Assembly: GCA_964609775.1 (NCBI GenBank)
Contig: CAZSSJ010000001.1
Coordinates: 22,858 to 86,857, forward strand
From: an uncultured Gammaproteobacteria bacterium
Lineage (GTDB): Bacteria; Patescibacteriota; Microgenomatia; JAMCZE01
Direction: 5' to 3'
DNA length: 64,000 nt
Position numbers and translations under genes: made by a program. Below, piece by piece: positions 21,972 to 44,500 of the stretch (its first letter is position 1; each line of letters begins with the position of its first letter). The notes below the pieces were generated by a model. That model had not been told where the DNA came from. It made no database searches and was given only the letters and a program-made list of their open reading frames with translations.

Positions 21972-24900
21972 ATGAAACAAATTAGACGGATTAGACTAAT
22001 TGGTCTAATTAGGCCAATTTGGGCAAAAAAATTAGGGATTTTTTTGCTCTCGGCGACGATTATCGTCGCCGGACTGCTCGTTTTCTGGGTGAACAGGAAC
22101 GGGGGGAAGGTCGAGGCGGCGTGGTTTGATGATTCCTGGGGCTACCGGCAGATTATAACTCTCACCAATAACGGGTCGACGCAGACGGATTATCAGGTGC
22201 AGGTGGTGGTGGGGACGGGCGATCTTATTGCCGCGGGGAAGATGCAATCTGACTGCAATGATTTGCGGTTTACGGATCTTTCCGGAAAGGTCCTTTCCTA
22301 TTGGACGGAATATTGCCGGTCAGGGGCGGGGAAAAATTCCTCGGTTTGGGTGACGATTCCCACCCTGACAACGACACCGGCACCTATATATATGTATTAC
22401 GGAAACCCGTCTGCGGCAACGGCGAGCACGTTTCGGTCTTTGCCGACGGGGATTAATTTGGGGGATGGGGCCGATGGGGCGGCGACTGTTTCGGGGACGG
22501 TGAACTTTAATTCGACGACGATTTCCGGACGGACGGAGGCTGATGGAGTCAATCCGGCGTCAACGGTGCTGACGGCGCTGGGGAGCACGACGATTACGGC
22601 GACGGCTGCGGCGGGGCTTTCCGTCGGGGATGAGGTTTTGATTATTAATCTTCAGGGGACGACTTCTGATTACGGAAATGTGGGAAAGTATGAAACGGCA
22701 AGGGTGACGGCGATTAATGGAGCTGTTTTAACTCTTAACCATCCTCTTGTTAATGCCTATGATGGGACGACACAAAAAATCATGGTCCAGCGGGTGCCGA
22801 ACTATTCGAGCGTGACGGTGTGCACGGGCAGCGCCGATCCGGTGGCCGGGTGTGCTTCGGCAGGAACGTTGAATCCTGCATCGTGGTCGAGCGGAAACGG
22901 GACAGGAGGGGTGGTCATGCTACGGGCCACGGGGACGGTGAATGTGGCGGCGTCGGGGAGCATTTCTGGAGCAGGTTTAGGTTATGCGGGAGGGGCGGGA
23001 GGCCCGGCGGGAGCAAAGGGCGGATATGGGGGAGACAGCTATGATGGGGATAATCCGCGAGGCGGATGTGCGGATTCAAGCTGTACGGCCGGGGTGGGTG
23101 GCGGGAAATCTGGGTCGGCGACCGGAGCTTCGCCAAATAGCGGTGGAACCCGCGGTGGAGGCGGCGGAGGGGGATCTGACGGGGCGACTAACGGGACTGG
23201 CGGCGGGGCGGCCGGAGGCGGCGGGGGTTATGGCGGAGGCGGAGGCGGAGGCGGAGCCAATGGTGATGGCTATGTGGCTCTTCCAAGCACTGCGAATGGA
23301 GGAACGGGCGGAAGTGGAGGCTCAACAGGAACTTCTGCGGGTGGTGGAGGAGGGGGTTGCCGGGACAATGATGGTGATAACACAGCCGGGGCCAACGGGG
23401 GAAATGCCGGCAGTGCCGGGTCAAATGGTAGTGCGAGCTGTTCGGGGACGGCAGGCACGGGGGGCGAAGTAGGGTCGGGAGCAACGAGCGGAAGCGGGGG
23501 CGGAGGGGCTGGAGGAGGTCTTGGTTCGGGCGGCGGGGGCGGAGGCGGAGGAACGTATGGCACGGCGGCTTTGACGACAATTTTTTTGGGAAGCGGCGGC
23601 GGGGGCGGTGGAGGGACAACAGCAGGAGTGGACTTTGCCGGAGCAGCCGGGGCGGCAGGCGGAGGAATCGTTTACATCAGTGCCGGGACAGTGACAGTCG
23701 CCGGGGCAGCTTCGGCCAACGGAGCCGATGGGACCACTCCTGACGCGCAAACTGGCAGTGGGGGGGCCGGGGCCGGAGGATCAGTTTTTATTTCAGGAGC
23801 CACAGTGACGCTGGGGAGCAGCTTAGTTTCAGCAACCGGAGGAGCTGCAGGTGCAGCTGATCAGGCAATCGCCGGATCCGGCGGAGGCGGAGTAGGACGG
23901 ATTGCGGTGAATTATTCAACGAGCACCGGTTCGACTAATCCTTCAGCTGGATCCACCTCCACATTGCCGGTCGCCGGGTCGCCATCGACGGAAGAAAAAG
24001 GCAACGGGCCGGTGGCTTTCTGGCACCTTGACGACGGCCAGGGAACAGTAGCCCAAGATTCAACGACGAATGGAAATGCTGGGACACTTTCGGGAACAAC
24101 TCTGCCCAGCTGGCAGACGGAGGACTTGTGCGTTTCGGGCAAGTGTCTCTATTTTAATGGGATTACTTCCAATGTGACGGCGGGGACAGTGAATGCGGTG
24201 CAAACCGTGTCTTTCTGGGTCAGGCCGGCGAGTGTTTCGGCCTCACTGGTGCAGTTGGCAAGCGGGGTCGATGTTAAAGCGGCTTCAGGAGTAGTCGGGA
24301 CTGACGGCTTTACTGCACCGACGATCTATGTCAACGGGGCCAAGGTGACAGGCAGCTCGGCGACGCCGTTTGCAGCCAGTCAATGGAATTTTGTGACGGT
24401 GACGACGGGGACAGGGATTACAGCAAATGCCATTACCTTGGGGAAAATGCAGACGGGAGTGTTAAACGGGTTTTTGGATGAAGTGAAACTCTATCACTAT
24501 GCCCGGAGTGCGGCGCAGGTGAAGGCAGATTATGCCAATTCGGGAATTAATAAAGGGACGGGAAGTGTTCTGGGGGCGGATCCGGATCAAGTGAATCGGA
24601 CGTTATCAAATGGGCTAGTTGGGTATTGGAAGATGGATGAAAGCGGGGCTGGTAGCTGCACAGGCGGAGCCAATGACAGCTGCGATTCATCCGGCAACGG
24701 CAATGACGGCAACTGGGTTAATCAAGCAGCGAACACGGGAGGAAAGTTCGGTAATGGAGTTATCTTTGACGGCGTCAATGACACGGTCGATGTGGCCCAA
24801 TCCAGCAGTCTTAATGGAGTAACCGATGACATTACCGTCTCGGCCTGGATCAAAACCACCGCTACAGGCGGGGGTCTGACCGACAATACATTTATCAGCA

Positions 24901-36073: not shown

Positions 36074-36357
36074 AATTTTTCGGGTTCAGACGGGATGGCA
36101 AAAGTTGAATTTGAGTTTAAACAATTAAATTTCCTTTATTCTTCTGCCTCTGCTCCTTTAAGATATGTTTGGTTTTTTGATTCCTCTGCTGACGCTGCTG
36201 TTTGTTTTGACCGCACGTTCTGGGCGAGACGGACAGATTGTGAAGACGGTGACGCCGGCGGTGGTGATGATTTTTCTTTTGGCTTCGGGAGGTGAGAGCG
36301 GGAAACTTGACTCCATCCAAATTTTTTGCTAATATTCCTTGACTGTGGTCAAAACAG

Positions 36358-37566
36358 ATGCAAGCCTTAATTGAAACCTACCATCGTTTACTTTCGGAAA
36401 TAGTACCGTCCTACTGGCGCCGGTTCTATGACGAGTTTGTCATGGATAGCCGGATGGTCGGCATTGTTGGGGCAAGAGGGGTGGGAAAGACCACGTTTCT
36501 TGTTAGCTATCTGCGGGAACACTACGGCGGTTCGGACAGGTCACTCTACGTCTCGGCGGACAACCTCTATTTTGTGGAGCATACTTTGATTGAAGTGGCG
36601 GATCAATTTGTCAAGGACTTCGCCGGGGAGATTTTGTGCATTGACGAGATTCACCGCTATAGGAATTGGAATCAGGAACTGAAAAATATTTACGACTCCT
36701 ACCCTAAACTGTCAGTAATATTTTCAGGGAGTTCGAGTGTTGATCTGGTGAAAGGGAAGTATGATCTATCCCGCCGGGCTAACTTGAAAACGATGTATGG
36801 CTTTTCCTTCCGGGAATATCTGGAGGTTTGGGAGAAAGCTAAATACCCGATTCTGACGCTGGCGGAAATTCGCACTAATCACACGATGTATGCTCAGGAA
36901 TTAATGAAGACGCCAAAAATCCTTGGTTATCTGAAACAGTATCTTAAGGGAGGTTACTACCCGACGTTTTTGGAAATGGGGAGCTACGGCGCCTATCAAA
37001 GCAGCCTGCGGGGGATTATTGACAAGATTATCTTTGAAGATATCAGTAGTTTTTATTCTTTAAATACCTCTAATTTGGACACTCTTAAGAAGATAATTTA
37101 TTTCTTTGGGACTGCCCAGCCCGGGACTGTTAACATCAACCGCCTGGCCGGAAGTTTAAAGAAGGACTATACCACAATTGCGGAGTATGTGCAGATTTTA
37201 AGAGATACCGGACTTCTTCGTTTTCTCCGGCGGAACAAACAAGGCCATGCTTTAGTGCGGGATGCAGAAAAGATTTATCTGGACAATCCGAATCTCCTTT
37301 ACGCTGTTAATCAGGAGGTAGGGAAGGAGCCACTGGTTGGAGTTTCGCGGGAGCTCTTTGTGATTGGCAGTTTGGAAAACGCAGACTACCACGTGTTTTT
37401 TTCTGAGGCGGCGGACGTTGAATGCGACGGGCACCTTTTTGAGATTGGGGGGAAGAACAAAACCGCCTCGCAGTTGAAAGGGAAAGAAGGATATTTAATT
37501 AGTGATGATGTCCTTGTTGGCGACTCCAGAACCATTCCCCTTTATTTGTTTGGGTTTTTGTCTTAA
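36358..37566 (+). CDS. AAA+ ATPase, AAA_14 + DUF4143 family (second, divergent copy)
   Basis: GARGVGKTTFL Walker A, ILCIDEIH Walker B; sigma70-like promoter TTGACT-17-TAATAT at about 36310..36340. Confidence 0.8.
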   Translation: MQALIETYHRLLSEIVPSYWRRFYDEFVMDSRMVGIVGARGVGKTTFLVSYLREHYGGSDRSLYVSADNLYFVEHTLIEVADQFVKDFAGEILCIDEIHRYRNWNQELKNIYDSYPKLSVIFSGSSSVDLVKGKYDLSRRANLKTMYGFSFREYLEVWEKAKYPILTLAEIRTNHTMYAQELMKTPKILGYLKQYLKGGYYPTFLEMGSYGAYQSSLRGIIDKIIFEDISSFYSLNTSNLDTLKKIIYFFGTAQPGTVNINRLAGSLKKDYTTIAEYVQILRDTGLLRFLRRNKQGHALVRDAEKIYLDNPNLLYAVNQEVGKEPLVGVSRELFVIGSLENADYHVFFSEAADVECDGHLFEIGGKNKTASQLKGKEGYLISDDVLVGDSRTIPLYLFGFLS

Positions 37567-37635
37567 TCGGTGGTTGATTTTTCAACTGGGGGTTTTTGTT
37601 TGGCCTCGAAAGATGAGGATTGGGAAATGAAAATG

Positions 37636-37666
37636 TTCCATGAGTTGCGATCGCGTTTTATGGAAC
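37636..37666. repeat. GTTCCAT-N-GCGATCGC-N-ATGGAAC palindromic element, copy 1 of 5
   Basis: gttccatgagttgcgatcgcgttttatggaac; the other copies are at 44464..44495, 47173..47204, 48945..48975 and a partial one near 41545. Confidence 0.8.
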
Positions 37667-37736
37667 AAAAATGCAAGATACAGAGTGGGGAAGTTGAGGA
37701 AAAAATTACCTTGTTGGCACTAGTGTGCAAGTTGGG

Positions 37737-38414
37737 TTATTTTAGGATTTGGGGTCTTAAGCTTCGGGCGAGGGATTCATAGAATTTCTCCATGGCTTTT
37801 TGGTCAAAGGGGACGAGCATTTTGGGAAGATTCGTTATTTCCGCGGCCTTGAGGAAGCTTTGGGCCGTTTTAATAGTGTCTGTGGTGACGACGAATTTTT
37901 GGTCAGCACTGGTGAGGAGATCGGCTGCTGTCCAGTTTGTTTCTTTGATAATTAAGTAGAGGTCGACGTAATCTCGTTCACGGGCTTTGGTGCGGATCGT
38001 GTGGATCTTGTTGACGGCAATGTCGTAGAGGCTATCAATTTCGAGGCCGCGCCACCTGATTCCCGGTTTTAGACGGTTGAAGGAGTAGTGGTTAAAGTCG
38101 ACCTTGAAACGGCTGTTGTCAGGGTAGCGGAAGAAATATGTGTAGAAACCAAGGTCGTCATCGACGCTAACGTGACGGTATTCGAGGATACTTTGATTCC
38201 TTTTGATCCATTCAGTAACACGGTCGCCATTAAAGGAGCGATCGGTGAAGAAATCCAAATCGTAGGATTCCCGGTGGTGGAGGTACCAGCTGGCCAGACC
38301 GGTGCCGCCGCTTAAGTAGAAGTTATCGAGGAGATATTTTTCCTGAAGTACCAGGTCCAGAAATTGCTTCTGTCGAAGGCTAAGTCCTTCTCCTTGCGCC
38401 AGGGTTTGTTCCAT
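37737..38414 (-). CDS. AbiEii/AbiGii-like nucleotidyltransferase (type IV TA toxin family)
   Basis: FYLSGGTGLASWYLHHRESYDLDFF motif (GGTAL...HR.S.DLD). Confidence 0.7.
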   Translation of the reverse strand: MEQTLAQGEGLSLRQKQFLDLVLQEKYLLDNFYLSGGTGLASWYLHHRESYDLDFFTDRSFNGDRVTEWIKRNQSILEYRHVSVDDDLGFYTYFFRYPDNSRFKVDFNHYSFNRLKPGIRWRGLEIDSLYDIAVNKIHTIRTKARERDYVDLYLIIKETNWTAADLLTSADQKFVVTTDTIKTAQSFLKAAEITNLPKMLVPFDQKAMEKFYESLARSLRPQILK

Positions 38415-38608
38415 AGGTAGAATTCTAGCACCTTTTTCTTGTCAGGATTGAGACGATCTTTGATTTTGAACCAGGCTTTCCGGAGCTCCTTTTCCTCGAT
38501 TTTTTCGCCCTCAAGGCCATAGTTTATACGCTGGACCAAGCGCCAGAGTTTATATTCTTTAGGATGGTTTTTTTTTAAGGCTTCCTCGTCAGTGTTCCAA
38601 TTGATCAT
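38312..38608 (-). CDS. Small conserved partner protein of the AbiEii-like NTase (putative antitoxin); it overlaps the NTase start by about 100 nt, and the NTase lies in the -1 frame.
   Basis: Paralogous to 39117..39389 (NW.TDE.A.KK..PK.YKLWRL.Q.IN.GL.GEK..EKE.RKAW.KIKDRL.P); same overlap architecture in both copies. Confidence 0.55.
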   Translation of the reverse strand: MINWNTDEEALKKNHPKEYKLWRLVQRINYGLEGEKIEEKELRKAWFKIKDRLNPDKKKVLEFYLWNKPWRKEKDLAFDRSNFWTWYFRKNISSITST

Positions 38609-38719
38609 TAAATAGATTATACCTCTTAAGGAAAAGCGGGGAGGGAGGGGCGGATTTGGCAGGAAGGTTGTCGCAGCAATCTGCCGTGTGGCAGTCTGTC
38701 GGCCCAGGGAAAGAGAGCT

Positions 38720-39004
38720 TCAGGTTGCTATGATGGTTGATTTGCGACCAAAGTCGTCTTGCCAGATTTTGAGTTTTTGCCCTTTCGGATAGTGTGTCGT
38801 CACATCATTTCTTGAGTCTGGATATAGTTGGCTGACATTAAATCCTTCGCCTGGTGCCAGGGAAATGATTTCAAGTGGACTTTGTGCATCGGAAGATAAT
38901 TCCCACTTTTTTTCTCCTTGAGACAGTTCCCGGGGAAAACGGAATTTGGGTAACAGGCCTCCTTCTGGATGCCAAAAATTGTCATACTCTATCTTACAGG
39001 TCAT
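38720..39004 (-). CDS. Small ORFan protein (94 aa) whose ATG directly abuts the conserved GA-leader
   Basis: Start codon immediately follows ...TTGACAAATTAAGC(AG)6AATAAGGCT. Confidence 0.5.
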   Translation of the reverse strand: MTCKIEYDNFWHPEGGLLPKFRFPRELSQGEKKWELSSDAQSPLEIISLAPGEGFNVSQLYPDSRNDVTTHYPKGQKLKIWQDDFGRKSTIIAT

Positions 39005-39080
39005 AGCCTTATTCTCTCTCTCTCTGCTTAATTTGTCAAGCTACGCTTGACAAAACCAGCCCCGGCGTTTTTTGTCGAGT
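39005..39080. promoter_or_regulatory. Conserved bidirectional leader/promoter element (copy a): rc TTGACA-AATTAAGC-(AG)6-AATAAGG-ATG for the minus gene, plus the palindrome TTGTCAAGCtacGCTTGACAA.
   Basis: Read directly; paralogous elements at 40292, 41474, 43345, 44375, 47105, 48878 and 59345. Confidence 0.7.
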
Positions 39081-39116
39081 TTGGGAGGGGCGGGTGAGCC
39101 TGATTTATGGTAAAAT

Positions 39117-39389
39117 ATGCTTATGCTTAACTGGTCCACTGACGAAAAAGCCTTCAAGAAAAAAGACCCTAAGGGCTACAAATTGTGGAGGTTAACTCAG
39201 CTCATAAACTTCGGTCTTGACGGGGAAAAACTGTCGGAAAAAGAAGTCAGAAAAGCCTGGCCGAAGATCAAGGACAGGCTCGATCCCTACAAGGGCCGTT
39301 TGCTGGAGTTTCTTATATGGGGAAAACAATACTCACTCCCAAACAATATCAGTTTCTGGAACTGGCCGCTGCCGACCCAAAAATCGTAG
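39117..39389 (+). CDS. Small conserved partner protein (paralog of 38312..38608)
   Basis: About 45% identity to the other copy; overlaps the downstream NTase gene by 72 nt. Confidence 0.55.
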   Translation: MLMLNWSTDEKAFKKKDPKGYKLWRLTQLINFGLDGEKLSEKEVRKAWPKIKDRLDPYKGRLLEFLIWGKQYSLPNNISFWNWPLPTQKS

Positions 39390-39991
39390 CGAATTTCTAT
39401 CTCACTGGCGGCACGGCTCTGTCAGAATTTTATCTCCACCACCGCCTCTCTGAAGACATCGATCTTTTTTGCCCGAAAGAAGAAGTCGATCAAAAATTCG
39501 TAGAAATTTTCCTCAAAAAAATCTCACCAAAGATGGCAATCCAATATCTCCGCCCGACCGTATTCTTGGGTCTTGTCAGTTACAAATTGGTCTTCACGGA
39601 CAAAACAGAATTGAAAGTAGATTTTAACTATTACCCTTTCCTCCAAATCGATAGTGGTACCAAATTTAATAATCTGAGTGTCGACAGCCTTTATGATATT
39701 GCGGCAAACAAACTGCACACTCTTTTTATGAGACCACGATCGCGCGATTACGTGGATCTTTATTTTATTCTCCAGCAAGAAAATTATCCGTTAGAAAAGC
39801 TGATAATCGACGCCAAAATCAAGTTCGACTGGCACATTGATAACACGACTCTCGCCAGTCAATTCTCAAGAGTGCAAGATTTAGTTTCAACCGATTTACC
39901 AAAAATGCTCGTTCCTTTTGATCAAGAAAAGATGGAAAAATTTTTTCTTGATCTGGCGAAATCGCTCAAAGGAAAGATATTTAAAGAGTGA
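39317..39991 (+). CDS. AbiEii/AbiGii-like nucleotidyltransferase (second copy)
   Basis: FYLTGGTALSEFYLHHRLSEDIDLF motif. Confidence 0.7.
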   Translation: MGKTILTPKQYQFLELAAADPKIVANFYLTGGTALSEFYLHHRLSEDIDLFCPKEEVDQKFVEIFLKKISPKMAIQYLRPTVFLGLVSYKLVFTDKTELKVDFNYYPFLQIDSGTKFNNLSVDSLYDIAANKLHTLFMRPRSRDYVDLYFILQQENYPLEKLIIDAKIKFDWHIDNTTLASQFSRVQDLVSTDLPKMLVPFDQEKMEKFFLDLAKSLKGKIFKE

Positions 39992-40045
39992 GCAGGGTTG
40001 GGGCAAATTGCTTCGGAAAGCAGGGGCAGGTGGCTGACAGACACC

Positions 40046-40291
40046 TTAATAATTATCAAGAATTTTTTTGGCCTTTATTTTTCGTTTTTCTGCTTCTGGA
40101 CTGATTTTTAATTTTTGGTCGAATGGCGCTTTTTGGTAGTAGGGATGGCTGTATTTTGGAGTTTTGCTAAATTTCTCTGGCACGTTCTTCCAGCCACATG
40201 TAAGAAGTACTCTCGTCGCTGGACGCGGTTTGATTGGTTTTATTAAGTGAAGAGATTGTTCAGACACCCCTTCAGACACCCCTTCAGACAC
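40046..40291 (-). CDS. Small ORFan (81 aa, GTG start) behind GA-leader copy b. The start is ambiguous: an ATG 2 nt upstream, in another frame, would give only a 16-aa peptide.
   Basis: The leader ...(AG)12AATAAAC is followed by an ATG overlapping the GTG; the N-terminus contains the tandem SEGV repeat. Confidence 0.35.
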   Translation of the reverse strand: MSEGVSEGVSEQSLHLIKPIKPRPATRVLLTCGWKNVPEKFSKTPKYSHPYYQKAPFDQKLKISPEAEKRKIKAKKILDNY

Positions 40292-40345
40292 ATGTTTATT
40301 CTCTCTCTCTCTCTCTCTCTCTGCTTAATTTGTCAAGTTGGGACT
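40292..40345. promoter_or_regulatory. GA-leader copy b, with (CT)12 on the plus strand
   Basis: gtttatt(ct)12gcttaatttgtcaag. Confidence 0.7.
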
Positions 40346-40410
40346 GGCTGGGAATCGGAGGAAGGAAATCGCATCTTGACATCATTGCATCTTGATGAGA
40401 AAATGTGGGT

Positions 40411-40665
40411 ATGAACACAGTCAGAACGACGATTTCGCTGGAGGCGGATTTACACCGGCAAGTTTTGGCACAGGCCAACAACCTGGGCTTGTCCATGAGC
40501 GAAGTTGTTAACAAGCGACTGATGAATCCTAACTTCGGGAAGAGCCGGGCCCAGATTGAGGAAAAAATTGCTGAGGACCGGCGCTTTTTCAGGCAGTTGT
40601 CTCACAAGGGAAGAAAAGTTGATTTAGTTAAGGCTTTGAGAGAGGACCGGGACCGTGACAGTTGA
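40411..40665 (+). CDS. vapB: VapB-type ribbon-helix-helix antitoxin. The ORF is open from GTG at 40405.
   Basis: N-terminal TISLEADLHRQV... RHH motif; own TTGACA-17-GAAAAT promoter directly upstream; overlaps vapC by 11 nt. Confidence 0.7.
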   Translation: MNTVRTTISLEADLHRQVLAQANNLGLSMSEVVNKRLMNPNFGKSRAQIEEKIAEDRRFFRQLSHKGRKVDLVKALREDRDRDS

Positions 40666-41074
40666 CAGGTTTGTCATTGACGCCAGCGTGGTTTTGGAAT
40701 GGGTGGAAACGAAAGAGTCGCCTCAAAAACAGAGGGCGCTTGGTCTCTATGAGCGGCTGGTGAAAGGTGAGGTGGCTTTTTCGGCGCCTTCATTTCTTCT
40801 GGTTGAGGTCATTAATGTGCTTTATTGGAAGAAAAGAAACACGGTTGAGGAGATCAGAGACTTTGTTGACCGGGTCAAGACTTCGGGGATTAATTTTGTT
40901 GACGGCGCGTTTTCAGCTGACGCCAGTGATGAGCTTCTGGATGCAGTTGGAAAGCATGAGATTACAGCCTATGACGCACAGTATGTGATTCTGGCAAAGA
41001 AGCTGGGAGTGAAGCTCCTGACGTTTGATGAGAAGTTGTTGGGGATTAAAGAAGTGGGTGCGGGGGAATGGTAG
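40655..41074 (+). CDS. vapC: PIN-domain toxin VapC
   Basis: FVIDASVVLEW..., YDAQYVILA acidic-residue pattern; 139 aa. Confidence 0.75.
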   Translation: MTVDRFVIDASVVLEWVETKESPQKQRALGLYERLVKGEVAFSAPSFLLVEVINVLYWKKRNTVEEIRDFVDRVKTSGINFVDGAFSADASDELLDAVGKHEITAYDAQYVILAKKLGVKLLTFDEKLLGIKEVGAGEW

Positions 41075-41080
41075 AGAGAC

Positions 41081-41473
41081 CTACCATATTTCCTGTGGTC
41101 CATATTCCTGGTCGAAATCTTTTTGAGCTAAGCGAACATATTTCTCTTCGGTAATCTGCCAAGAGGTGCCGTCTCCCTTTGGATCCCATTCGGTGCGTAA
41201 TAGAACAGTGTTTGGTGTGCGGGTTTTCCAGCGAGATTCGCGAATGTCCGGCCTTTTTGTTCGAACCGCTTCATCATATTCATCGTATTTTCGACCCGTT
41301 AGTCCTATTCTTTCTTGAGCTAATCGACGGCCTTCTTCAGTCCAAGGACGAAATTCAATTCTCCTTCCTTGTTGGCCAGGTCCAAAACCAAGATTTGGAT
41401 GGAGAAAATAATCAAGTTCTATTTTATCCTGCTCAAATAGAGCTTGTGTCTCCGGCGATTGATTTACGGACAT
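41081..41473 (-). CDS. Small ORFan (130 aa) behind GA-leader copy c; intact paralog of the pseudogene at 48494..48877.
   Basis: ATG abuts ...TTGACTTTTTAGGAAG(AG)6AATAAGGCC; shares GRRLAQERIGLTGRKY...RTEWDPKGD with 48494..48877. Confidence 0.55.
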   Translation of the reverse strand: MSVNQSPETQALFEQDKIELDYFLHPNLGFGPGQQGRRIEFRPWTEEGRRLAQERIGLTGRKYDEYDEAVRTKRPDIRESRWKTRTPNTVLLRTEWDPKGDGTSWQITEEKYVRLAQKDFDQEYGPQEIW

Positions 41474-41560
41474 GGCCTTATTCTCTCTCTCTCTTCCTAA
41501 AAAGTCAAATTTGGTTGGGCCGGAAAAGTGGTCGTGTCTTATTTATGCGATCGCATTTTT
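41474..41560. promoter_or_regulatory. GA-leader copy c (variant TTGACTTTTTAGGAAG) plus a partial GCGATCGC palindrome
   Basis: ggccttatt(ct)6tcctaaaaagtcaaa ... ttatgcgatcgcatttt. Confidence 0.65.
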
Positions 41561-41646
41561 AAGAAGTCAGTTGGTTGATAAGAGAAGATAGGATAAATTG
41601 ACATTATTAATTGATTCGACTATAATCGAAAAGAGGCATAAAACAT

Positions 41647-42234
41647 ATGAAGAAAATCGAACTCATTTGGCGGGAGATTCTAGAGAACGGACAGAAAGAT
41701 CCCGTTTTTGAACAGAAGGAGCTGGCGTCAAGACTGGGATTGTCCACGAGCACGGTTTTTGCGGCGCTTGAGCCATTGAGAGCAATTGGAGCGGTAACGG
41801 TTGGCGGCCGGGGGTTTCGGTTGACTAATTTTTCCAAAGTGCTCTTCTTTTGGGCGACGCATCGAAATTTGGCCAAAGATATCGTTTACAAAACGAGGGT
41901 TGATCTGCCAATGGTCGAAATTGAGGGCCTGGTTGACAACGAAACGATTTACGGGGCATATAGTGCCGGCCGCAGGCTTCTGGGGCAGGCTCCGGCTGAC
42001 TATGACAAAGTCTATCTTTATGCCTCAAAAACAGACAATTTGATCAGGAGATTTCCGAGGGCGGGGGGGGCAGCCAACGTTTTTGTCCTGCAGGCTGATC
42101 CGGGCTTGCCGGCTTTTGGCAAAATGACCCCGGTGTCGCAGACGTTTGTTGATTTGTGGAATTTGCCGGACTGGTTTGCGCAGGATTTTTTGGAGGCTTT
42201 AAAGGAGAAATTTTATGGCGGATTATTATCATGA
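41647..42234 (+). CDS. wHTH DNA-binding protein, putative antitoxin/regulator of the downstream NTase
   Basis: N-terminal KELASRLGLSTSTVFAALEPLRAIGAV wHTH; overlaps the next gene by 20 nt. Confidence 0.5.
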   Translation: MKKIELIWREILENGQKDPVFEQKELASRLGLSTSTVFAALEPLRAIGAVTVGGRGFRLTNFSKVLFFWATHRNLAKDIVYKTRVDLPMVEIEGLVDNETIYGAYSAGRRLLGQAPADYDKVYLYASKTDNLIRRFPRAGGAANVFVLQADPGLPAFGKMTPVSQTFVDLWNLPDWFAQDFLEALKEKFYGGLLS

Positions 42235-42826
42235 TTTAGTGACTGACAAGAGTTGGAAGACTTTGCAGGAACTTAAGAGCCAGGTGGATTTTGTGCTCAT
42301 CGGCGGGTGGGCGGTTTATTTATATACAAAAGCTTTGAAGTCGAAAGACATTGACATTATTGTCAATTTTGACCAACTGGACAGATTAAGGAGTCAATTT
42401 GAGGTCGTCAAAAATGAGCGGTTGAAGAAATATGAAGCGAGGCGCGAGGAAGTCCAGATTGATGTCTATTTGCCGCACTTCAGCGAAATTGGAGTGCCCA
42501 TTGAGGAGGTTGTCAAAAGGGTCGTTTCCCGGGAGACGTTTGTGGTTCCGGTGCCGGAGGCGCTTCTCATTTTGAAGCAGTTTATTTTGGGGCAGAGGGG
42601 GCTGTCGGCCAAGGGCCAAAAAGACCGACTGGACATCTTGTCGATCCTCCTTTCGGTTGAGGTGAACTTTAGGGAATATCGCAAATTAACGCAGGCGTGG
42701 GGCTTGACTTCTTTTCCTTCGGAGCTGGCGGAACTTGTTTCGACAACGGTCAGAATTCCGGAGCTATCGGTTGATGAGTATCAATGGTCGAAGGTGAAAA
42801 AGAAGGTTTTGAACTTGGTGGCTTAG
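42215..42826 (+). CDS. Minimal nucleotidyltransferase-fold protein (AbiEii/MNT-like putative toxin)
   Basis: VDFVLIGGWAVYLY...SKDIDIIV (GG...DID NTase motif). Confidence 0.55.
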   Translation: MADYYHDLVTDKSWKTLQELKSQVDFVLIGGWAVYLYTKALKSKDIDIIVNFDQLDRLRSQFEVVKNERLKKYEARREEVQIDVYLPHFSEIGVPIEEVVKRVVSRETFVVPVPEALLILKQFILGQRGLSAKGQKDRLDILSILLSVEVNFREYRKLTQAWGLTSFPSELAELVSTTVRIPELSVDEYQWSKVKKKVLNLVA

Positions 42827-42888
42827 CGTCGGGTTTTTAGTTGTCTCCCGTGTTTAGATTTGTGGTCCGAGAGCTTGAGAATATGACA

Positions 42889-43344
42889 TTAGTTTTGAGG
42901 TTGGAGCATTTTGATGAGACTGCCTAGTCTTGCTGCTTGATCTTCGCCGATCGTTGATGCAGTCTGGGCTGCACCGAGGAATTCTTCACGTAGAAATTGT
43001 CTTTCAGGGTTCCTTCCTAGGGCTACTGCGTCCTTTCCCTCTGCTGAGGCCGCGCTTTCGAGCCATTTTGCCTGGTCTATTTTCAGATAATTTATTGCTT
43101 TTTGCCTGGCAGCCGGGTCGTTGTTTTTTAATCCCGTGGCAATCTGTTCGATTACTGCGCGGCCAGCTTCGTACATGGCCCGGATTTCCCCTTGATCATC
43201 GCCCCAACCCTCGCCTGCTTTTTCAGCCGCCTCAAGCTCATGCTCAAAGTAGGTTATCGGATTAGCGTAGATTTCGTTCGATTCGGCTTCGTACCAATGA
43301 GGGAATCTGCCAGTTTGAGTTGTTTTTTCTGTTCTGTCAGCCAT
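42889..43344 (-). CDS. Small ORFan (about 151 aa from ATG at 43344; the frame is open from TTG at 43359) behind GA-leader copy d
   Basis: This is the only copy with an SD-like GGAGGT between the (AG)n tract and the ATG. Confidence 0.5.
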   Translation of the reverse strand: MADRTEKTTQTGRFPHWYEAESNEIYANPITYFEHELEAAEKAGEGWGDDQGEIRAMYEAGRAVIEQIATGLKNNDPAARQKAINYLKIDQAKWLESAASAEGKDAVALGRNPERQFLREEFLGAAQTASTIGEDQAARLGSLIKMLQPQN

Positions 43345-43400
43345 TTGAATTACCTCCAAGGTCTATTGTCTCTCTCTCTCTTCCTAAAAAGTCAAATTTT
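43345..43400. promoter_or_regulatory. GA-leader copy d (TTGACTTTTTAGGAAG(AG)6 variant with an added SD)
   Basis: ttgaattacctccaaggtctattg(tc)6ttcctaaaaagtcaaa. Confidence 0.65.
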
Positions 43401-43440
43401 GGCTTTGCGTTTTGGCTACGAAGTTGATATACTCTGAGAA

Positions 43441-43716
43441 ATGCAAACTACGCTTCTTAACTACCGAATCATTGTTGAGCCCGACAGCCAAACTGGAACA
43501 GGCAAGCTTGGATACACAGCCTATGCACCCACCTTGGGAGTGGCTGATGATGGAAAGACAATTGAAGAGGCAATTAAAAATGTTCGGGGCGCAATTGAAG
43601 CATTTGTGGAAAGTTTGATCGTTGATGGGCAACCAGTGCCAACAGACCGAGTGGAGCAAGATCTTGTGGCGACGGCACAAATTTCGGTTAACGGCCCGGT
43701 TCAATTCGCTTTTTAA
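43441..43716 (+). CDS. hicB: HicB-family antitoxin (UPF0150)
   Basis: YRIIVEPDSQTGTGKLGYTAYAPTLGVADDGKTIEEAIKNVRGAIEAF pattern. Confidence 0.7.
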   Translation: MQTTLLNYRIIVEPDSQTGTGKLGYTAYAPTLGVADDGKTIEEAIKNVRGAIEAFVESLIVDGQPVPTDRVEQDLVATAQISVNGPVQFAF

Positions 43717-43937
43717 TGCCTGAGATTCCTCAAATTAAACCTCGGAATGTGGAAAAAGTGCTACTGAAAAGAGGTTTTGTCGGCCGGACAACAAAAAGCA
43801 GTCATGTTGTTTTTGTTCATAAGGATGGCAGGCGCACAGTTGTTCCGGTTCACAATAAACCGGTGAGCACAGGAACTCTTCGGGCAATCCTTCGCCAGGC
43901 AAAGATTTCCGTGGAGGAGTTTTTGGAGGAAGTTTAA
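43716..43937 (+). CDS. hicA: HicA-family mRNA interferase toxin
   Basis: KPRNVEKVLLKRGF...SSHVVFVHKDGRRTVVPVHNK...GTLRAILRQAKIS; 73 aa. Confidence 0.75.
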   Translation: MPEIPQIKPRNVEKVLLKRGFVGRTTKSSHVVFVHKDGRRTVVPVHNKPVSTGTLRAILRQAKISVEEFLEEV

Positions 43938-44374
43938 TTGGGAGATGGGGTTTCTGGTGGACTTGAGAACTTTTCTAGTTGTTTTGCTAGAGCCCTGAAA
44001 CCTGACAAAAACCATGTCTCGCCTTCATCCTCACTTTTTTTTGGTTCGAGACCGTACTCTTCAGACATTGCGTTGACAACTCCTGAGAAGTCGTTCAGGG
44101 TCTGAGCAGTTCTGAGGGCGTCTTGCCACAACTGTATACCTTGTTCCGCTGCCGCATACATTGCTGGGTCGTCTTGTGGATCTACACGGTTCCTGATTAT
44201 TAGCTCATTATTGAGTCTTGTTTGGGCGAGCAGAATTGCATCCTGCCGAGCTTTTCGGTCGGATACCGATTTTCCAACATATCTGTTTCTAAACTCAGCT
44301 GGTAGTCTGTTTTCCAGAACTGCCCAAGCTTTCCTGGGATTAAAGTTCTCTTCAACATTATTTTTTTCTGACAT
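43934..44374 (-). CDS. Small ORFan (146 aa) behind GA-leader copy e
   Basis: ATG abuts ...(AG)10AATAAAACAA. Confidence 0.5.
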   Translation of the reverse strand: MSEKNNVEENFNPRKAWAVLENRLPAEFRNRYVGKSVSDRKARQDAILLAQTRLNNELIIRNRVDPQDDPAMYAAAEQGIQLWQDALRTAQTLNDFSGVVNAMSEEYGLEPKKSEDEGETWFLSGFRALAKQLEKFSSPPETPSPN

Positions 44375-44500
44375 TTGTTTTATTCTCTCTCTCTCTCTCT
44401 CTCTCTGCTTAATTTGTCAAGCTTGGACAATCCAGAATGGCCCAGGAGAATTTTAGGGAAAATGTTCGATGTTTTGTGATCGCGTTTTATGGAACAAAAT
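44375..44500. promoter_or_regulatory. GA-leader copy e ((CT)10) plus the GTTCGAT-GTGATCGC-ATGGAAC palindrome
   Basis: Read directly. Confidence 0.7.

What the first reader, a model, noticed from the sequence alone, without database searches (positions are those of the whole stretch)
37737..39991. Two paralogous overlapping small-ORF plus AbiEii-like nucleotidyltransferase modules in inverted orientation, with a conserved -1 frame overlap
Modules 38608→37737 (minus) and 39117→39991 (plus) each consist of a 90-98-aa protein (NW.TDE.A.KK.PK.YKLWRL.Q.IN.GL.GEK..EKE.RKAW.KIKDRL.P…LEF[YL][LI]W) whose reading frame runs 72-100 nt into the NTase gene. In both copies the NTase frame is -1 relative to the small ORF, even though the copies are only about 45% identical. 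In the plus copy the NTase start ATG GGG AAA sits on the heptamer G_GGA_AAA in the small-ORF frame, a potential -1 slippery site. This may be translational coupling of a two-gene toxin/antitoxin-like system, or programmed frameshifting that yields a fusion protein. The small protein is not a recognisable AbiEi.
Basis: partly seen in the sequence, partly recalled or inferred. Interest (0 to 1): 0.5.

Follow-up and report, generated by a model that had tools for sequence, protein, structure and literature searches.

The report
Toxin gene pair with selected overlap
Two diverged copies of a toxin-antitoxin-like gene pair from an uncultured groundwater bacterium share 50-100 bases that encode conserved parts of both proteins in two reading frames, which is a clear bacterial case of one gene growing over another and not a programmed ribosomal frameshift.

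Summary
The window comes from a Candidatus Gottesmanbacteria genome. It holds two inverted paralogous modules, each a small ORF (88-98 aa) followed by an AbiEii/MenT-type nucleotidyltransferase (NTase) that starts 73 or 103 nt before the small ORF ends, in the -1 frame.

- **Conservation:** In 63 of 63 intact modules from other Patescibacteria, the NTase ATG sits in the small protein's Leu/Ile-Trp codons (NNA TGG). The overlap is always -1 and 52-103 nt long.
- **Dual coding:** The first ~48 nt of the overlap is under purifying selection in both frames. Constraint on either frame alone cannot explain the conservation of the other.
- **Origin:** More distant relatives have a 63-70-aa small protein that overlaps the NTase by only 1-25 nt, or not at all. 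The long tail therefore arose when a stop codon was lost over the ancestral NTase N-terminus.
- **Frameshifting is not supported:** The G_GGA_AAA heptamer occurs in only 39/63 modules and is absent from the window's minus copy. No conserved downstream RNA structure exists, and the one apparent fusion protein whose DNA I read is an artefact.
- **Expression:** The small ORF appears leaderless, with an extended -10 box ending about 6 nt before its ATG.
- **Identity of the small protein:** It belongs to an uncatalogued helical family that is not AbiEi. It is most likely the antitoxin.

Verdict: a new variant of a known kind, of moderate interest.

The parts
38616..38621 (-). -10 promoter hexamer TATAAT of the minus module, 7 nt upstream of the small-ORF ATG (leaderless arrangement)
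   Evidence: Sequence. The family-wide position of TGnTATAAT at -15..-7 comes (63/71 loci; Shine-Dalgarno (SD)-like motif in only 5/71).
38312..38608 (-). Small ORF A (98 aa): helical core of about 66 aa plus a 30-aa tail (NKPWRKEKDLAFDRSNFWTW...) read across the NTase start
   Evidence: Its subfamily has 27 clusters with a conserved tail LWNKKWxxEPGLxxDRSNFWxW.
37737..38414 (-). AbiEii/MenT-type nucleotidyltransferase A (225 aa)
   Evidence: Pfam PF08843 E 1.6e-15; PADLOC AbiEii; 40% identical to copy B.
38312..38414 (-). 103-nt dual-coding overlap of module A (NTase in the -1 frame); no slippery heptamer
   Evidence: WIN_minus has no canonical X_XXY_YYZ site.
39108..39116 (+). Extended -10 promoter TGgTAAAAT of the plus module, ending 6 nt before the ATG at 39123
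   Evidence: Sequence; family pattern.
39123..39389 (+). Small ORF B (88 aa from the family-conserved ATG; the mechanical ORF starts at 39117): four helices plus the tail GKQYSLPNNISFWNWPLPTQKS
   Evidence: tail YSLPxNLxFWN at least 90% conserved. AlphaFold2 (AF2) model with pLDDT 78, tail at low confidence.
39317..39991 (+). AbiEii/MenT-type nucleotidyltransferase B (224 aa) with motifs I-IV: G31-G32, R43, S45, D47, D49, K132, R143-D144-x-x-D147
   Evidence: Pfam E 1.9e-19; invariant columns; AF2 pLDDT 92.8; Foldseek hits to JHP933, TglT/MenT3 and MenT1.
39317..39389 (+). 73-nt overlap of module B. The first ~48 nt (39317-39365) encode the conserved small-protein tail and, in the NTase frame, its N-terminal coil and most of helix 1
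   Evidence: Entropy by codon position; substitution classes; synonymous-codon simulations; NTase helix at residues 8-19.
39320..39326 (+). G_GGA_AAA heptamer in the small-ORF frame. It is a by-product of coding W-G-K in one frame and M-G-K in the other, and is not conserved
   Evidence: Present in 39/63 modules; replaced by GAA, GAC, CAA, AAC, CAC or GGC codons elsewhere.
38643..38653 (+). GGGAGGGGCGG, an exact 11-mer about 35-45 nt upstream of the minus-module start; its twin lies at 39083-39093 upstream of the plus module. Whether it belongs to the modules is uncertain
   Evidence: a third exact copy at 22988.
39083..39093 (+). Second copy of GGGAGGGGCGG, in the -35 region of the plus-module promoter

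Best explanation
Each module is a two-gene, toxin-antitoxin-like operon.

- **Transcription (inferred):** A promoter with an extended -10 box (TGnTATAAT) ends about 6 nt before the first ATG, so the mRNA is probably leaderless.
- **First gene:** It encodes a basic, four-helix protein of an uncatalogued family restricted to Patescibacteria. This protein is inferred to be the antitoxin.
- **Second gene:** It encodes an AbiEii/MenT-type (DUF1814) nucleotidyltransferase, the inferred toxin. By analogy with MenT and AbiEii it probably blocks translation by modifying tRNA 3' ends.
- **Translation of the NTase (ATG conservation shown, its use as the start inferred):** It starts from its own ATG, which is embedded in the small protein's C-terminal Leu/Ile-Trp codons (NNA TGG). 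That embedding fixes the -1 frame relationship by descent.
- **Origin of the long overlap (ancestral and derived states shown, direction of change inferred):** In the ancestral state, still seen in relatives, the small ORF stops 1-25 nt later at a TAA lying inside the NTase Ile-Leu-Thr codons. In the clade found here, mainly Microgenomates, synonymous changes in those NTase codons removed the stop. The small protein gained a 16-30-aa tail read over the NTase N-terminal coil and first helix.
- **Current state (shown):** That tail is now under purifying selection in its own frame, so about 48 nt code for two conserved peptides.
- **What the tail does (inferred):** It adds a protein-level function, most plausibly contact with or regulation of the toxin. 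Translating ribosomes also cover the weak, SD-poor toxin start, which would keep toxin synthesis below antitoxin synthesis.

No programmed frameshift is needed.
For: - **Separate genes:** The ATG is conserved in 63/63 intact modules. The base before TGG is A in 63/63, against 28% of other Leu/Ile codons. The overlap is always -1 and 52-103 nt long.
- **Dual coding, by nucleotide entropy** (small-frame positions 1/2/3): 0.25/0.44/0.64 in the overlap, 0.82/0.56/1.39 upstream and 0.42/1.48/0.59 downstream.
- **Dual coding, by substitution class:** Of the possible single-base variants, 64% of those silent only in the small frame are observed, 38% of those silent only in the NTase frame, and 17% of those that change both.
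- **Dual coding, by simulation:** With NTase peptides fixed and codons randomised, the small frame stays open in 10% of sequences (observed 57/57) and tail identity is 0.39 (observed 0.79). The reverse simulation gives 14% open and 0.36 identity, against 0.70 observed.
- **Ancestral state:** In 63-70-aa relatives the NTase ATG lies in L-W codons in most, and overlaps are 1-25 nt or none. The NTase N-terminal motif ILTxxQxxFL is present even without an overlap, and the small-ORF TAA lies in ATC CTA ACN.
- **NTase identity:** Pfam and PADLOC AbiEii. Motifs I-IV are invariant (motif definitions from PMC3985639). The fold matches JHP933, TglT/MenT3 and MenT1.
- **Precedent for a small antitoxin:** MenA1 is a 68-aa antitoxin unrelated to AbiEi that contacts the MenT1 N-terminal helix (PMC10435456).
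- **Possible phosphoacceptor:** An invariant Ser lies two residues before the first catalytic Asp (S45-E-D47), like the MenT1 T39/D41 phosphoacceptor (PMC11375011).
- **Leaderless start:** An extended -10 box sits at -15..-7 in 63/71 loci; an SD-like motif occurs in 5/71.
- **TA-like behaviour:** Genomes carry several copies. Eight loci keep an intact small ORF next to a truncated NTase. The window modules sit in a low-GC island with VapBC-like, HicB-like and other NTase pairs.
Against: - No experiment shows toxicity or neutralisation, so the antitoxin role of the small protein is inferred from gene order and precedent only.
- The NTase start lacks an SD-like motif in 33/63 modules, so how it is initiated is unclear.
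- Termination-reinitiation coupling is hard to picture across 52-103 nt.
- The transcription start is inferred from promoter geometry and was not mapped.
- The sequences are phylogenetically related, so the counts are not independent events.
Confidence: 0.8

Rival explanations
1. Programmed -1 ribosomal frameshifting at G_GGA_AAA, or at another site in the overlap, makes a small-domain-NTase fusion protein that is the main or an essential product.
For: The plus copy and 39/63 modules carry a canonical X_XXY_YYZ heptamer exactly at the frame junction. The NTase start has no SD-like motif in 33/63 modules. The frame relationship is always -1 in the close clade. A few database proteins look like in-frame fusions (P0126, P0130, P0214, P0215).
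Against: - The heptamer is missing in 24/63 modules, including the window's minus copy. Twelve of 63 have no canonical heptamer anywhere in the overlap.
- GGGGAAAA is explained by coding W-G-K and M-G-K in two frames.
- There is no consensus structure downstream (0 pairs). Fold z-scores are -0.60 against -0.10 in the control.
- The ATG is kept in 63/63 modules.
- The zero-frame tail is under purifying selection, so the unshifted product matters.
- Relatives have non-overlapping genes in other frames.
- P0215 is an artefact: TGA was read as Trp, and there is an indel in an A7 run. The other apparent fusions are short or end soon after the junction, and their DNA was not checked.
Confidence: 0.07
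2. The small protein is not an antitoxin. It is a transcription factor, a sensor or adaptor, or a protein unrelated to the NTase's activity, and the NTase is a housekeeping or defence enzyme that needs no neutraliser.
For: The small protein has no similarity to any known antitoxin. It is basic and helical, so it could bind nucleic acid (composition read from the sequence). Not all DUF1814 genes are linked to antitoxins (PMC3985639).
Against: The pairing is very tight: among the 80 genome loci retrieved by the small protein, most carry the NTase immediately downstream, and the distant 63-70-aa relatives are also paired. The upstream-small-gene order is typical of TA operons. There are several copies per genome. 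NTase decay with the small ORF retained occurs in 8 loci. MenA1 is a precedent for a short helical antitoxin (PMC10435456).
Confidence: 0.12
3. The tail conservation is not selection on a peptide. It is a by-product of nucleotide-level constraint on the NTase translation-initiation region, or an annotation artefact of a read-through ORF.
For: The 5' ends of genes are often constrained at the RNA level. The tail is predicted at low confidence in isolation (pLDDT 58-64). Relatives do without a tail.
Against: Variation concentrates at small-frame third positions and is silent there while changing NTase residues (Leu CTN entropy 1.83, Pro CCN 1.03). Variants silent only in the small frame are observed more often than those silent only in the NTase frame, and both more often than variants that change both. 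The frame is open in 57/57 sequences against 10% expected. A second subfamily has a different, also conserved, 30-aa tail. No conserved RNA structure was found.
Confidence: 0.05

Closest known systems
AbiE (AbiEi/AbiEii) type IV toxin-antitoxin / abortive-infection system (Streptococcus agalactiae, Lactococcus; PMC3985639)
   Same: The downstream gene is a DUF1814/AbiEii nucleotidyltransferase with motifs I-IV. The layout is bicistronic with the partner gene upstream and overlapping the toxin start.
   Different: The partner is not AbiEi (COG5340, a winged-helix domain plus a C-terminal domain of roughly 200-300 aa) but an 88-98-aa helical protein of an uncatalogued family. The overlap is 52-103 nt and dual-coding, where S. 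agalactiae abiE overlaps by 4 nt. The promoter geometry implies a leaderless mRNA, where abiE has a 26-nt leader.
MenAT1 (MenA1/MenT1, Rv0078B/Rv0078A) of Mycobacterium tuberculosis (PMC10435456, PMC11375011)
   Same: A DUF1814-fold NTase toxin is paired with a very short helical antitoxin (68 aa) unrelated to AbiEi. The antitoxin contacts the toxin's N-terminal helix. A Ser/Thr lies two residues before the first catalytic Asp, the site of antitoxin-induced auto-phosphorylation.
   Different: The small protein shows no sequence or fold similarity to MenA1. The NTase is only a remote structural relative (Foldseek E 1e-4, 15-17% identity). No long dual-coding overlap was recalled or found for MenAT1.
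Overprinted (dual-coding) same-strand gene overlaps, best known in viruses and rare in bacteria (PMC8227390, PMC4683798)
   Same: A new coding stretch was created in an alternative frame of a pre-existing gene. Both frames are now under purifying selection.
   Different: Here the new stretch is a C-terminal extension of an existing neighbouring gene, created by stop-codon loss, rather than a whole new gene. The ancestral short-overlap state survives in relatives. The two partners are probably a toxin and its antitoxin.
Programmed -1 frameshifting cassettes (dnaX, IS3-family transposases)
   Same: Two ORFs overlap in the -1 frame, and many members have an X_XXY_YYZ heptamer at the junction.
   Different: The heptamer is not conserved. 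No stimulatory structure is present. The downstream ORF has its own conserved ATG. The zero-frame continuation is itself conserved.

Membership tests
AbiEii / DUF1814 (MenT-type) nucleotidyltransferase toxins | Match to the family profile (Pfam PF08843) | tested here: met
   E 1.9e-19 (71 bits) and 1.6e-15 (58 bits), cut-off 22.5. Multiple PADLOC AbiEii models match.
AbiEii / DUF1814 (MenT-type) nucleotidyltransferase toxins | Motifs I/II (hG[G/S]-x~15-DhD with an Arg in motif II), motif III (Lys in a hydrophobic context) and motif IV (+DxxD), as defined in PMC3985639 | tested here: met
   G31, G32, R43, D47, D49, K132, R143, D144 and D147 are invariant in 46 sequences. The spacing is x=14 rather than 15.
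AbiEii / DUF1814 (MenT-type) nucleotidyltransferase toxins | DUF1814 fold | tested here: met
   AF2 model with pLDDT 92.8. Best PDB matches are JHP933 (E 5e-8), TglT/MenT3 (1e-5) and MenT1 (1e-4).
AbiEii / DUF1814 (MenT-type) nucleotidyltransferase toxins | Toxicity through nucleotidyl transfer (tRNA 3'-end modification or GTP binding) | not testable with these tools
   Needs expression and biochemistry.
AbiE system (AbiEi + AbiEii) | Cognate antitoxin of the AbiEi/COG5340 family (N-terminal winged helix plus C-terminal domain) | tested here: not met
   The small proteins hit no AbiEi model in Pfam, NCBIfam or PADLOC at E<=0.1/0.01. They are 88-98 aa long with a four-helix model.
MenAT1-like (short antitoxin MenA1) | Homology of the small partner to MenA1 | tested here: not met
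MenAT-like regulation | Ser/Thr phosphoacceptor two residues before the first catalytic Asp | tested here: met
   S45-E-D47 is invariant; compare MenT1 T39/D41 (PMC11375011). Phosphorylation itself is not testable here.
Programmed -1 ribosomal frameshift cassette | Conserved slippery heptamer X_XXY_YYZ at the junction | tested here: not met
   G_GGA_AAR is present in 39/63 modules. Twelve of 63 have no canonical heptamer in the overlap, including the window's minus copy.
Programmed -1 ribosomal frameshift cassette | Conserved stimulatory hairpin or pseudoknot 5-9 nt downstream | tested here: not met
   RNAalifold predicts 0 pairs on 27 sequences. The mean z-score is -0.60 against -0.10 in the control. 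Pseudoknots were not modelled explicitly.
Programmed -1 ribosomal frameshift cassette | Downstream frame lacks its own start and depends on the shift | tested here: not met
   The ATG is conserved in 63/63 modules. Distant relatives have separate, non-overlapping genes.
Dual-coding (overprinted) gene overlap | Purifying selection in both frames beyond what either frame imposes on the other | tested here: met
Dual-coding (overprinted) gene overlap | Identifiable ancestral single-coding state | tested here: met
   Relatives with a 63-70-aa small ORF have overlaps of 1-25 nt or none, and the same NTase N-terminal motif is present.
Leaderless mRNA | Transcription start at or within a few nt of the start codon, with no SD | tested here: inconclusive
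   An extended -10 box ends 6 nt before the ATG in 46 loci and 4-9 nt before it in 63/71. An SD-like motif occurs in 5/71. The transcription start is inferred, not mapped.

The most novel reading that the evidence does not exclude
The overprinted tail is the functional heart of the system. A peptide encoded by the same ~48 nt as the toxin's N-terminal helix, read one base out of register, docks on or regulates that very toxin. For example, it could trigger Ser45 auto-phosphorylation or act as a sensor released on phage attack. The two partners would then be forced to co-evolve through shared nucleotides. A weaker variant is that heptamer-bearing members also make a low-level antitoxin-toxin fusion by -1 slippage, with a regulatory role.
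Probability: 0.12. Interest if true: 0.7.

Novelty: new variant of a known kind. Interest (0 to 1): 0.45.

Why it matters
- **Missed systems:** AbiEii/MenT toxins in Patescibacteria have a partner family that no current catalogue recognises. Defence and TA annotation therefore misses these systems or reports orphan toxins.
- **Overprinting case:** The module gives an unusually clean bacterial example of overprinting. The ancestral state (short overlap) and the derived state (52-103 nt, selected in both frames) are both sampled many times. This makes it useful for testing methods that detect overlapping genes and for asking how a toxin and its regulator evolve when they share nucleotides.
- **Caution for scanning:** A canonical slippery heptamer at a -1 junction can arise purely from dual coding.

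Tried and rejected
- **Fusion proteins as evidence for frameshifting.** The profile search found a 282-aa 'small domain + AbiEii' protein (P0215). Its contig shows a TGA stop read as Trp by the gene caller and an indel in an A7 run that splits the NTase. I rejected it as an artefact. P0126, P0130 and P0214 are short or end soon after the junction. Their frame switch lies upstream of the ATG, and I did not check their DNA.
- **Stimulatory RNA structure.** Single-sequence folds with shuffles and RNAalifold found nothing.
- **Sequence search of PDB chains.** No significant hits for either protein.
- **Phage or plasmid carriage.** The small protein has no tblastn hits.
- **First metagenome scan.** A 41-sequence alignment of short relatives was too diverse to give search patterns, so I repeated the scan with 8 closer sequences.
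- **SD for the NTase from the conserved Glu codon (GGAG).** Only 14/63 modules have GGAG and 33/63 have nothing, so I do not claim it.
- **The GGGAGGGGCGG 11-mer as an operator.** It occurs in opposite orientation relative to the two genes and has a third copy elsewhere. I left it unexplained.
Full report
**1. The observation**

On the minus strand, a 98-aa ORF (38608→38312) runs 103 nt into a 225-aa ORF (38414→37737). On the plus strand, a 90-aa ORF (39117→39389) runs 73 nt into a 224-aa ORF (39317→39991). In both copies the second ORF is in the -1 (+2) frame relative to the first.

The large proteins match Pfam AbiEii (E 1.6e-15 and 1.9e-19) and PADLOC AbiEii models. The small proteins match nothing in Pfam or NCBIfam and no AbiEi model in PADLOC. 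The two small proteins are 59% identical over 78 aa and the two NTases 40% over 218 aa. There are no further copies in the window. The plus-copy small protein is 100% identical to a hypothetical protein of a Candidatus Gottesmanbacteria genome.

**2. The arrangement is a conserved family trait**

The small protein has 249 relatives of 81-95 aa. Those that carry a source name come from Patescibacteria. A profile search of 1.84 billion representative proteins finds only 174 hits, so the family is small and lineage-restricted.

A scan of one genome per species returned 80 loci. The titles that name a lineage are mostly Microgenomates-group: Gottesman-, Davies-, Levy-, Roizman-, Woese-, Beckwith-, Curtiss-, Collier- and Amesbacteria. 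Some genomes carry two or three loci.

In 63 of 72 parsed modules the NTase is intact. In all 63, its ATG lies 194 or 197 nt into the small ORF (191 nt in one, L075), in the -1 frame, with an overlap of 52-103 nt (70 nt in 37 of them). The ATG is formed by the last base of a Leu/Ile codon plus the TG of an invariant Trp codon (TTA/CTA/ATA TGG). That last base is A in 63/63, against 28% of Leu/Ile codons elsewhere in the same ORFs. Eight further loci keep an intact small ORF beside a truncated NTase.

**3. The overlap encodes two selected peptides**

The small proteins do not end at the Trp. Their tails are conserved (LWGKxYSLPxNLxFWN, with many columns at or above 90%). The minus copy belongs to a smaller subfamily of 27 clusters with a different, longer conserved tail: LWNKKWxxEPGLxxDRSNFWxW.

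I ran three tests on 57 ungapped modules.

- **Entropy by codon position.** Entropy drops at all three positions in the first 48 nt of overlap: 0.25/0.44/0.64. Upstream, where only the small ORF is coding, it is 0.82/0.56/1.39. Downstream, where only the NTase is coding, it is 0.42/1.48/0.59. Small-frame Leu, Pro, Asn and Phe are invariant, while their third positions vary freely. That variation changes the NTase residue (P/S/A/T, K/H/N/E and so on).
- **Substitution classes.** Among all possible single-base changes, 64% of those silent only in the small frame are observed in at least two sequences. The figures are 38% for those silent only in the NTase frame and 17% for those that alter both.
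- **Simulation.** With the observed NTase peptides fixed and synonymous codons redrawn, the small frame stays open in 10% of sequences (observed 57/57) and tail identity is 0.39 (observed 0.79). The reverse simulation keeps the NTase frame open in 14% and gives identity 0.36 (observed 0.70). The ATG survives in 33% of simulated sequences, against all of the real ones.

After FWN the small frame is unconstrained, and the stop position varies.

**4. Origin of the overlap**

A metagenome scan with the shorter members of the family (63-70 aa) returned 80 loci. These small ORFs are also followed by AbiEii NTases (37-49% identical to the window's over the full-length matches). In most of these pairs the NTase ATG again sits in L-W codons, but the small ORF stops only 19-25 nt later. 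Others overlap by 1, 7, 10 or 16 nt. Several do not overlap at all (gap of 0-6 nt) and sit in other relative frames: L125, L128, L139, L147, L151 and L154.

The NTase N-terminal motif ILTxxQxxFL is present in all of them, so it predates the long overlap. In the short-overlap relatives the small-ORF TAA lies inside the NTase Ile-Leu-Thr codons (ATC CTA ACN). In the long-overlap clade these codons read ATA CTC ACT, which removes the stop. The residue after ILT is free in the relatives (P, K, Q, S, G, L, T, E, D, R and others) but is restricted to P/S/A/T (NCC) in the long-overlap clade. This restriction is what the small-frame Leu-Pro codons impose.

The tail is therefore an overprinted C-terminal extension that later became selected. 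The shared -1 frame of the two window copies is inherited.

**5. Frameshifting**

- **Heptamer.** G_GGA_AAR is present in 39/63 modules. Elsewhere the Gly codon is replaced by GAA, GAC, CAA, AAC, CAC or GGC. Twelve modules, including the window's minus copy, have no canonical heptamer anywhere in the overlap. The GGGGAAAA run follows from coding W-G-K in one frame and M-G-K in the other.
- **Downstream structure.** RNAalifold predicts no pairs on 27 sequences. Single-sequence z-scores are -0.60, against -0.10 in a control region.
- **Upstream reading frame.** The NTase frame is open for only 9-51 nt upstream of the ATG in all but one module.
- **Apparent fusion.** The 282-aa 'fusion' P0215 comes from a contig where TGA was read as Trp and an indel in an A7 run splits the NTase.

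I therefore consider frameshifting unsupported. Low-level slippage in heptamer-bearing members cannot be excluded without an experiment.

**6. Expression signals**

In 63 of 71 loci a -10 hexamer (at least 5/6 match to TATAAT) lies 4-9 nt upstream of the small-ORF ATG, with a 6-nt spacer in 46. TG at the extended -10 position is present in 53 of the loci. SD-like motifs occur in only 5/71.

In the window the -10 boxes are TGgTAAAAT (39108-39116, 6 nt before the ATG at 39123) and TATAAT (38621-38616, 7 nt before the ATG at 38608). Transcription usually starts about 7 nt downstream of the -10 hexamer (established knowledge), so the small ORF is probably translated from a leaderless mRNA. This is an inference.

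The NTase start has no SD-like motif in 33/63 modules and GGAG in only 14. I infer weak, independent initiation that is partly masked by ribosomes translating the small ORF. That would favour an excess of the small protein, as is usual for antitoxins (the general principle is reviewed in PMC5535158).

**7. The proteins**

*NTase.* The AF2 model has pLDDT 92.8. Residues 1-7 are coil and residues 8-19 form the first helix, most of which is encoded by the conserved part of the overlap. The best PDB matches are JHP933, TglT/MenT3 and MenT1. Motifs I-IV as defined for AbiEii (PMC3985639) are invariant: G31-G32, R43, D47, D49, K132 and R143-D144-x-x-D147. So is S45, which is positioned like the MenT1 T39 phosphoacceptor (PMC11375011).

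**8. Context**

The modules lie in a lower-GC stretch (0.42-0.47, against 0.50-0.57 in the flanks). This stretch sits between a 619-aa ORF that I did not assign to a family and the ruvABC genes. It also holds the following:

- an AAA_14/DUF4143 ATPase that matches the PADLOC candidate PDC-S01;
- a VapBC-like pair;
- an HTH + DUF6036 NTase pair;
- a HicB-like ORF.

The small protein has no relatives in the phage or plasmid collections.

**9. Verdict**

These are two diverged copies of a Patescibacteria-specific AbiEii/MenT-type module. Its partner gene belongs to an uncatalogued family. The long -1 overlap is a real dual-coding region under selection that arose by stop-codon loss. It is a new variant of a known kind and of moderate interest.

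The frameshift idea is the weakest part of the original finding. The strongest new points are the selected overlap, its reconstructed origin, and the leaderless promoter geometry.

Noticed in passing
window 38643-38653, 39083-39093 and 22988-22998 (all + strand): There are three exact copies of the GC-rich 11-mer GGGAGGGGCGG. Two lie about 35-45 nt upstream of the two small-ORF starts, in opposite orientation relative to the genes. Ten matches at up to 1 mismatch were found, against 3.3 expected by chance.
   Followed up: partly
window 38720-39004 (-), with a (CT)n run at about 39008-39022: A 94-aa ORF lies between the two modules, upstream of and co-oriented with the minus module. It has no family match beyond a sub-threshold NCBIfam hit (E 0.059). 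It is unclear whether it is a gene.
   Followed up: no
window ~36100-44400: This is a lower-GC island (0.42-0.47 against 0.50-0.57 in the flanks) packed with TA or defence-like genes. It holds an AAA_14/DUF4143 ATPase matching the PADLOC candidate PDC-S01 (36358-37566), a VapB/VapC-like pair (40405-41074), an HTH + DUF6036 nucleotidyltransferase pair overlapping by 20 nt (41647-42826) and a HicB-like ORF (43441-43716). ruvABC lies just downstream.
   Followed up: partly
L161 (JGI Ga0637471_0076326) 335-1183: A database 'fusion' protein (P0215, 282 aa) results from a gene call that reads TGA as Trp, combined with an indel in an A7 run that splits the NTase. It is not a real fusion. In this relative the NTase ATG is in the +1 frame, not -1.
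   Followed up: yes
L017, L030, L041, L042, L052, L070, L073, L074: Eight loci keep an intact small ORF next to a truncated NTase ORF (21-122 aa). This is the decay pattern expected if the NTase is the dispensable or toxic partner.
   Followed up: partly
loci L004-L080 record titles: Many MAG records that carry this Patescibacteria-type module are titled 'uncultured Gammaproteobacteria' or 'Pseudomonadales' (binchicken/SRP co-assemblies). These are probably mislabelled taxonomy in the source records.
   Followed up: no
window 40290-40320: A (CT/TC)n-rich stretch translates as SLSLSLSL in one frame, just upstream of the VapB-like ORF. Its significance is unknown.
   Followed up: no
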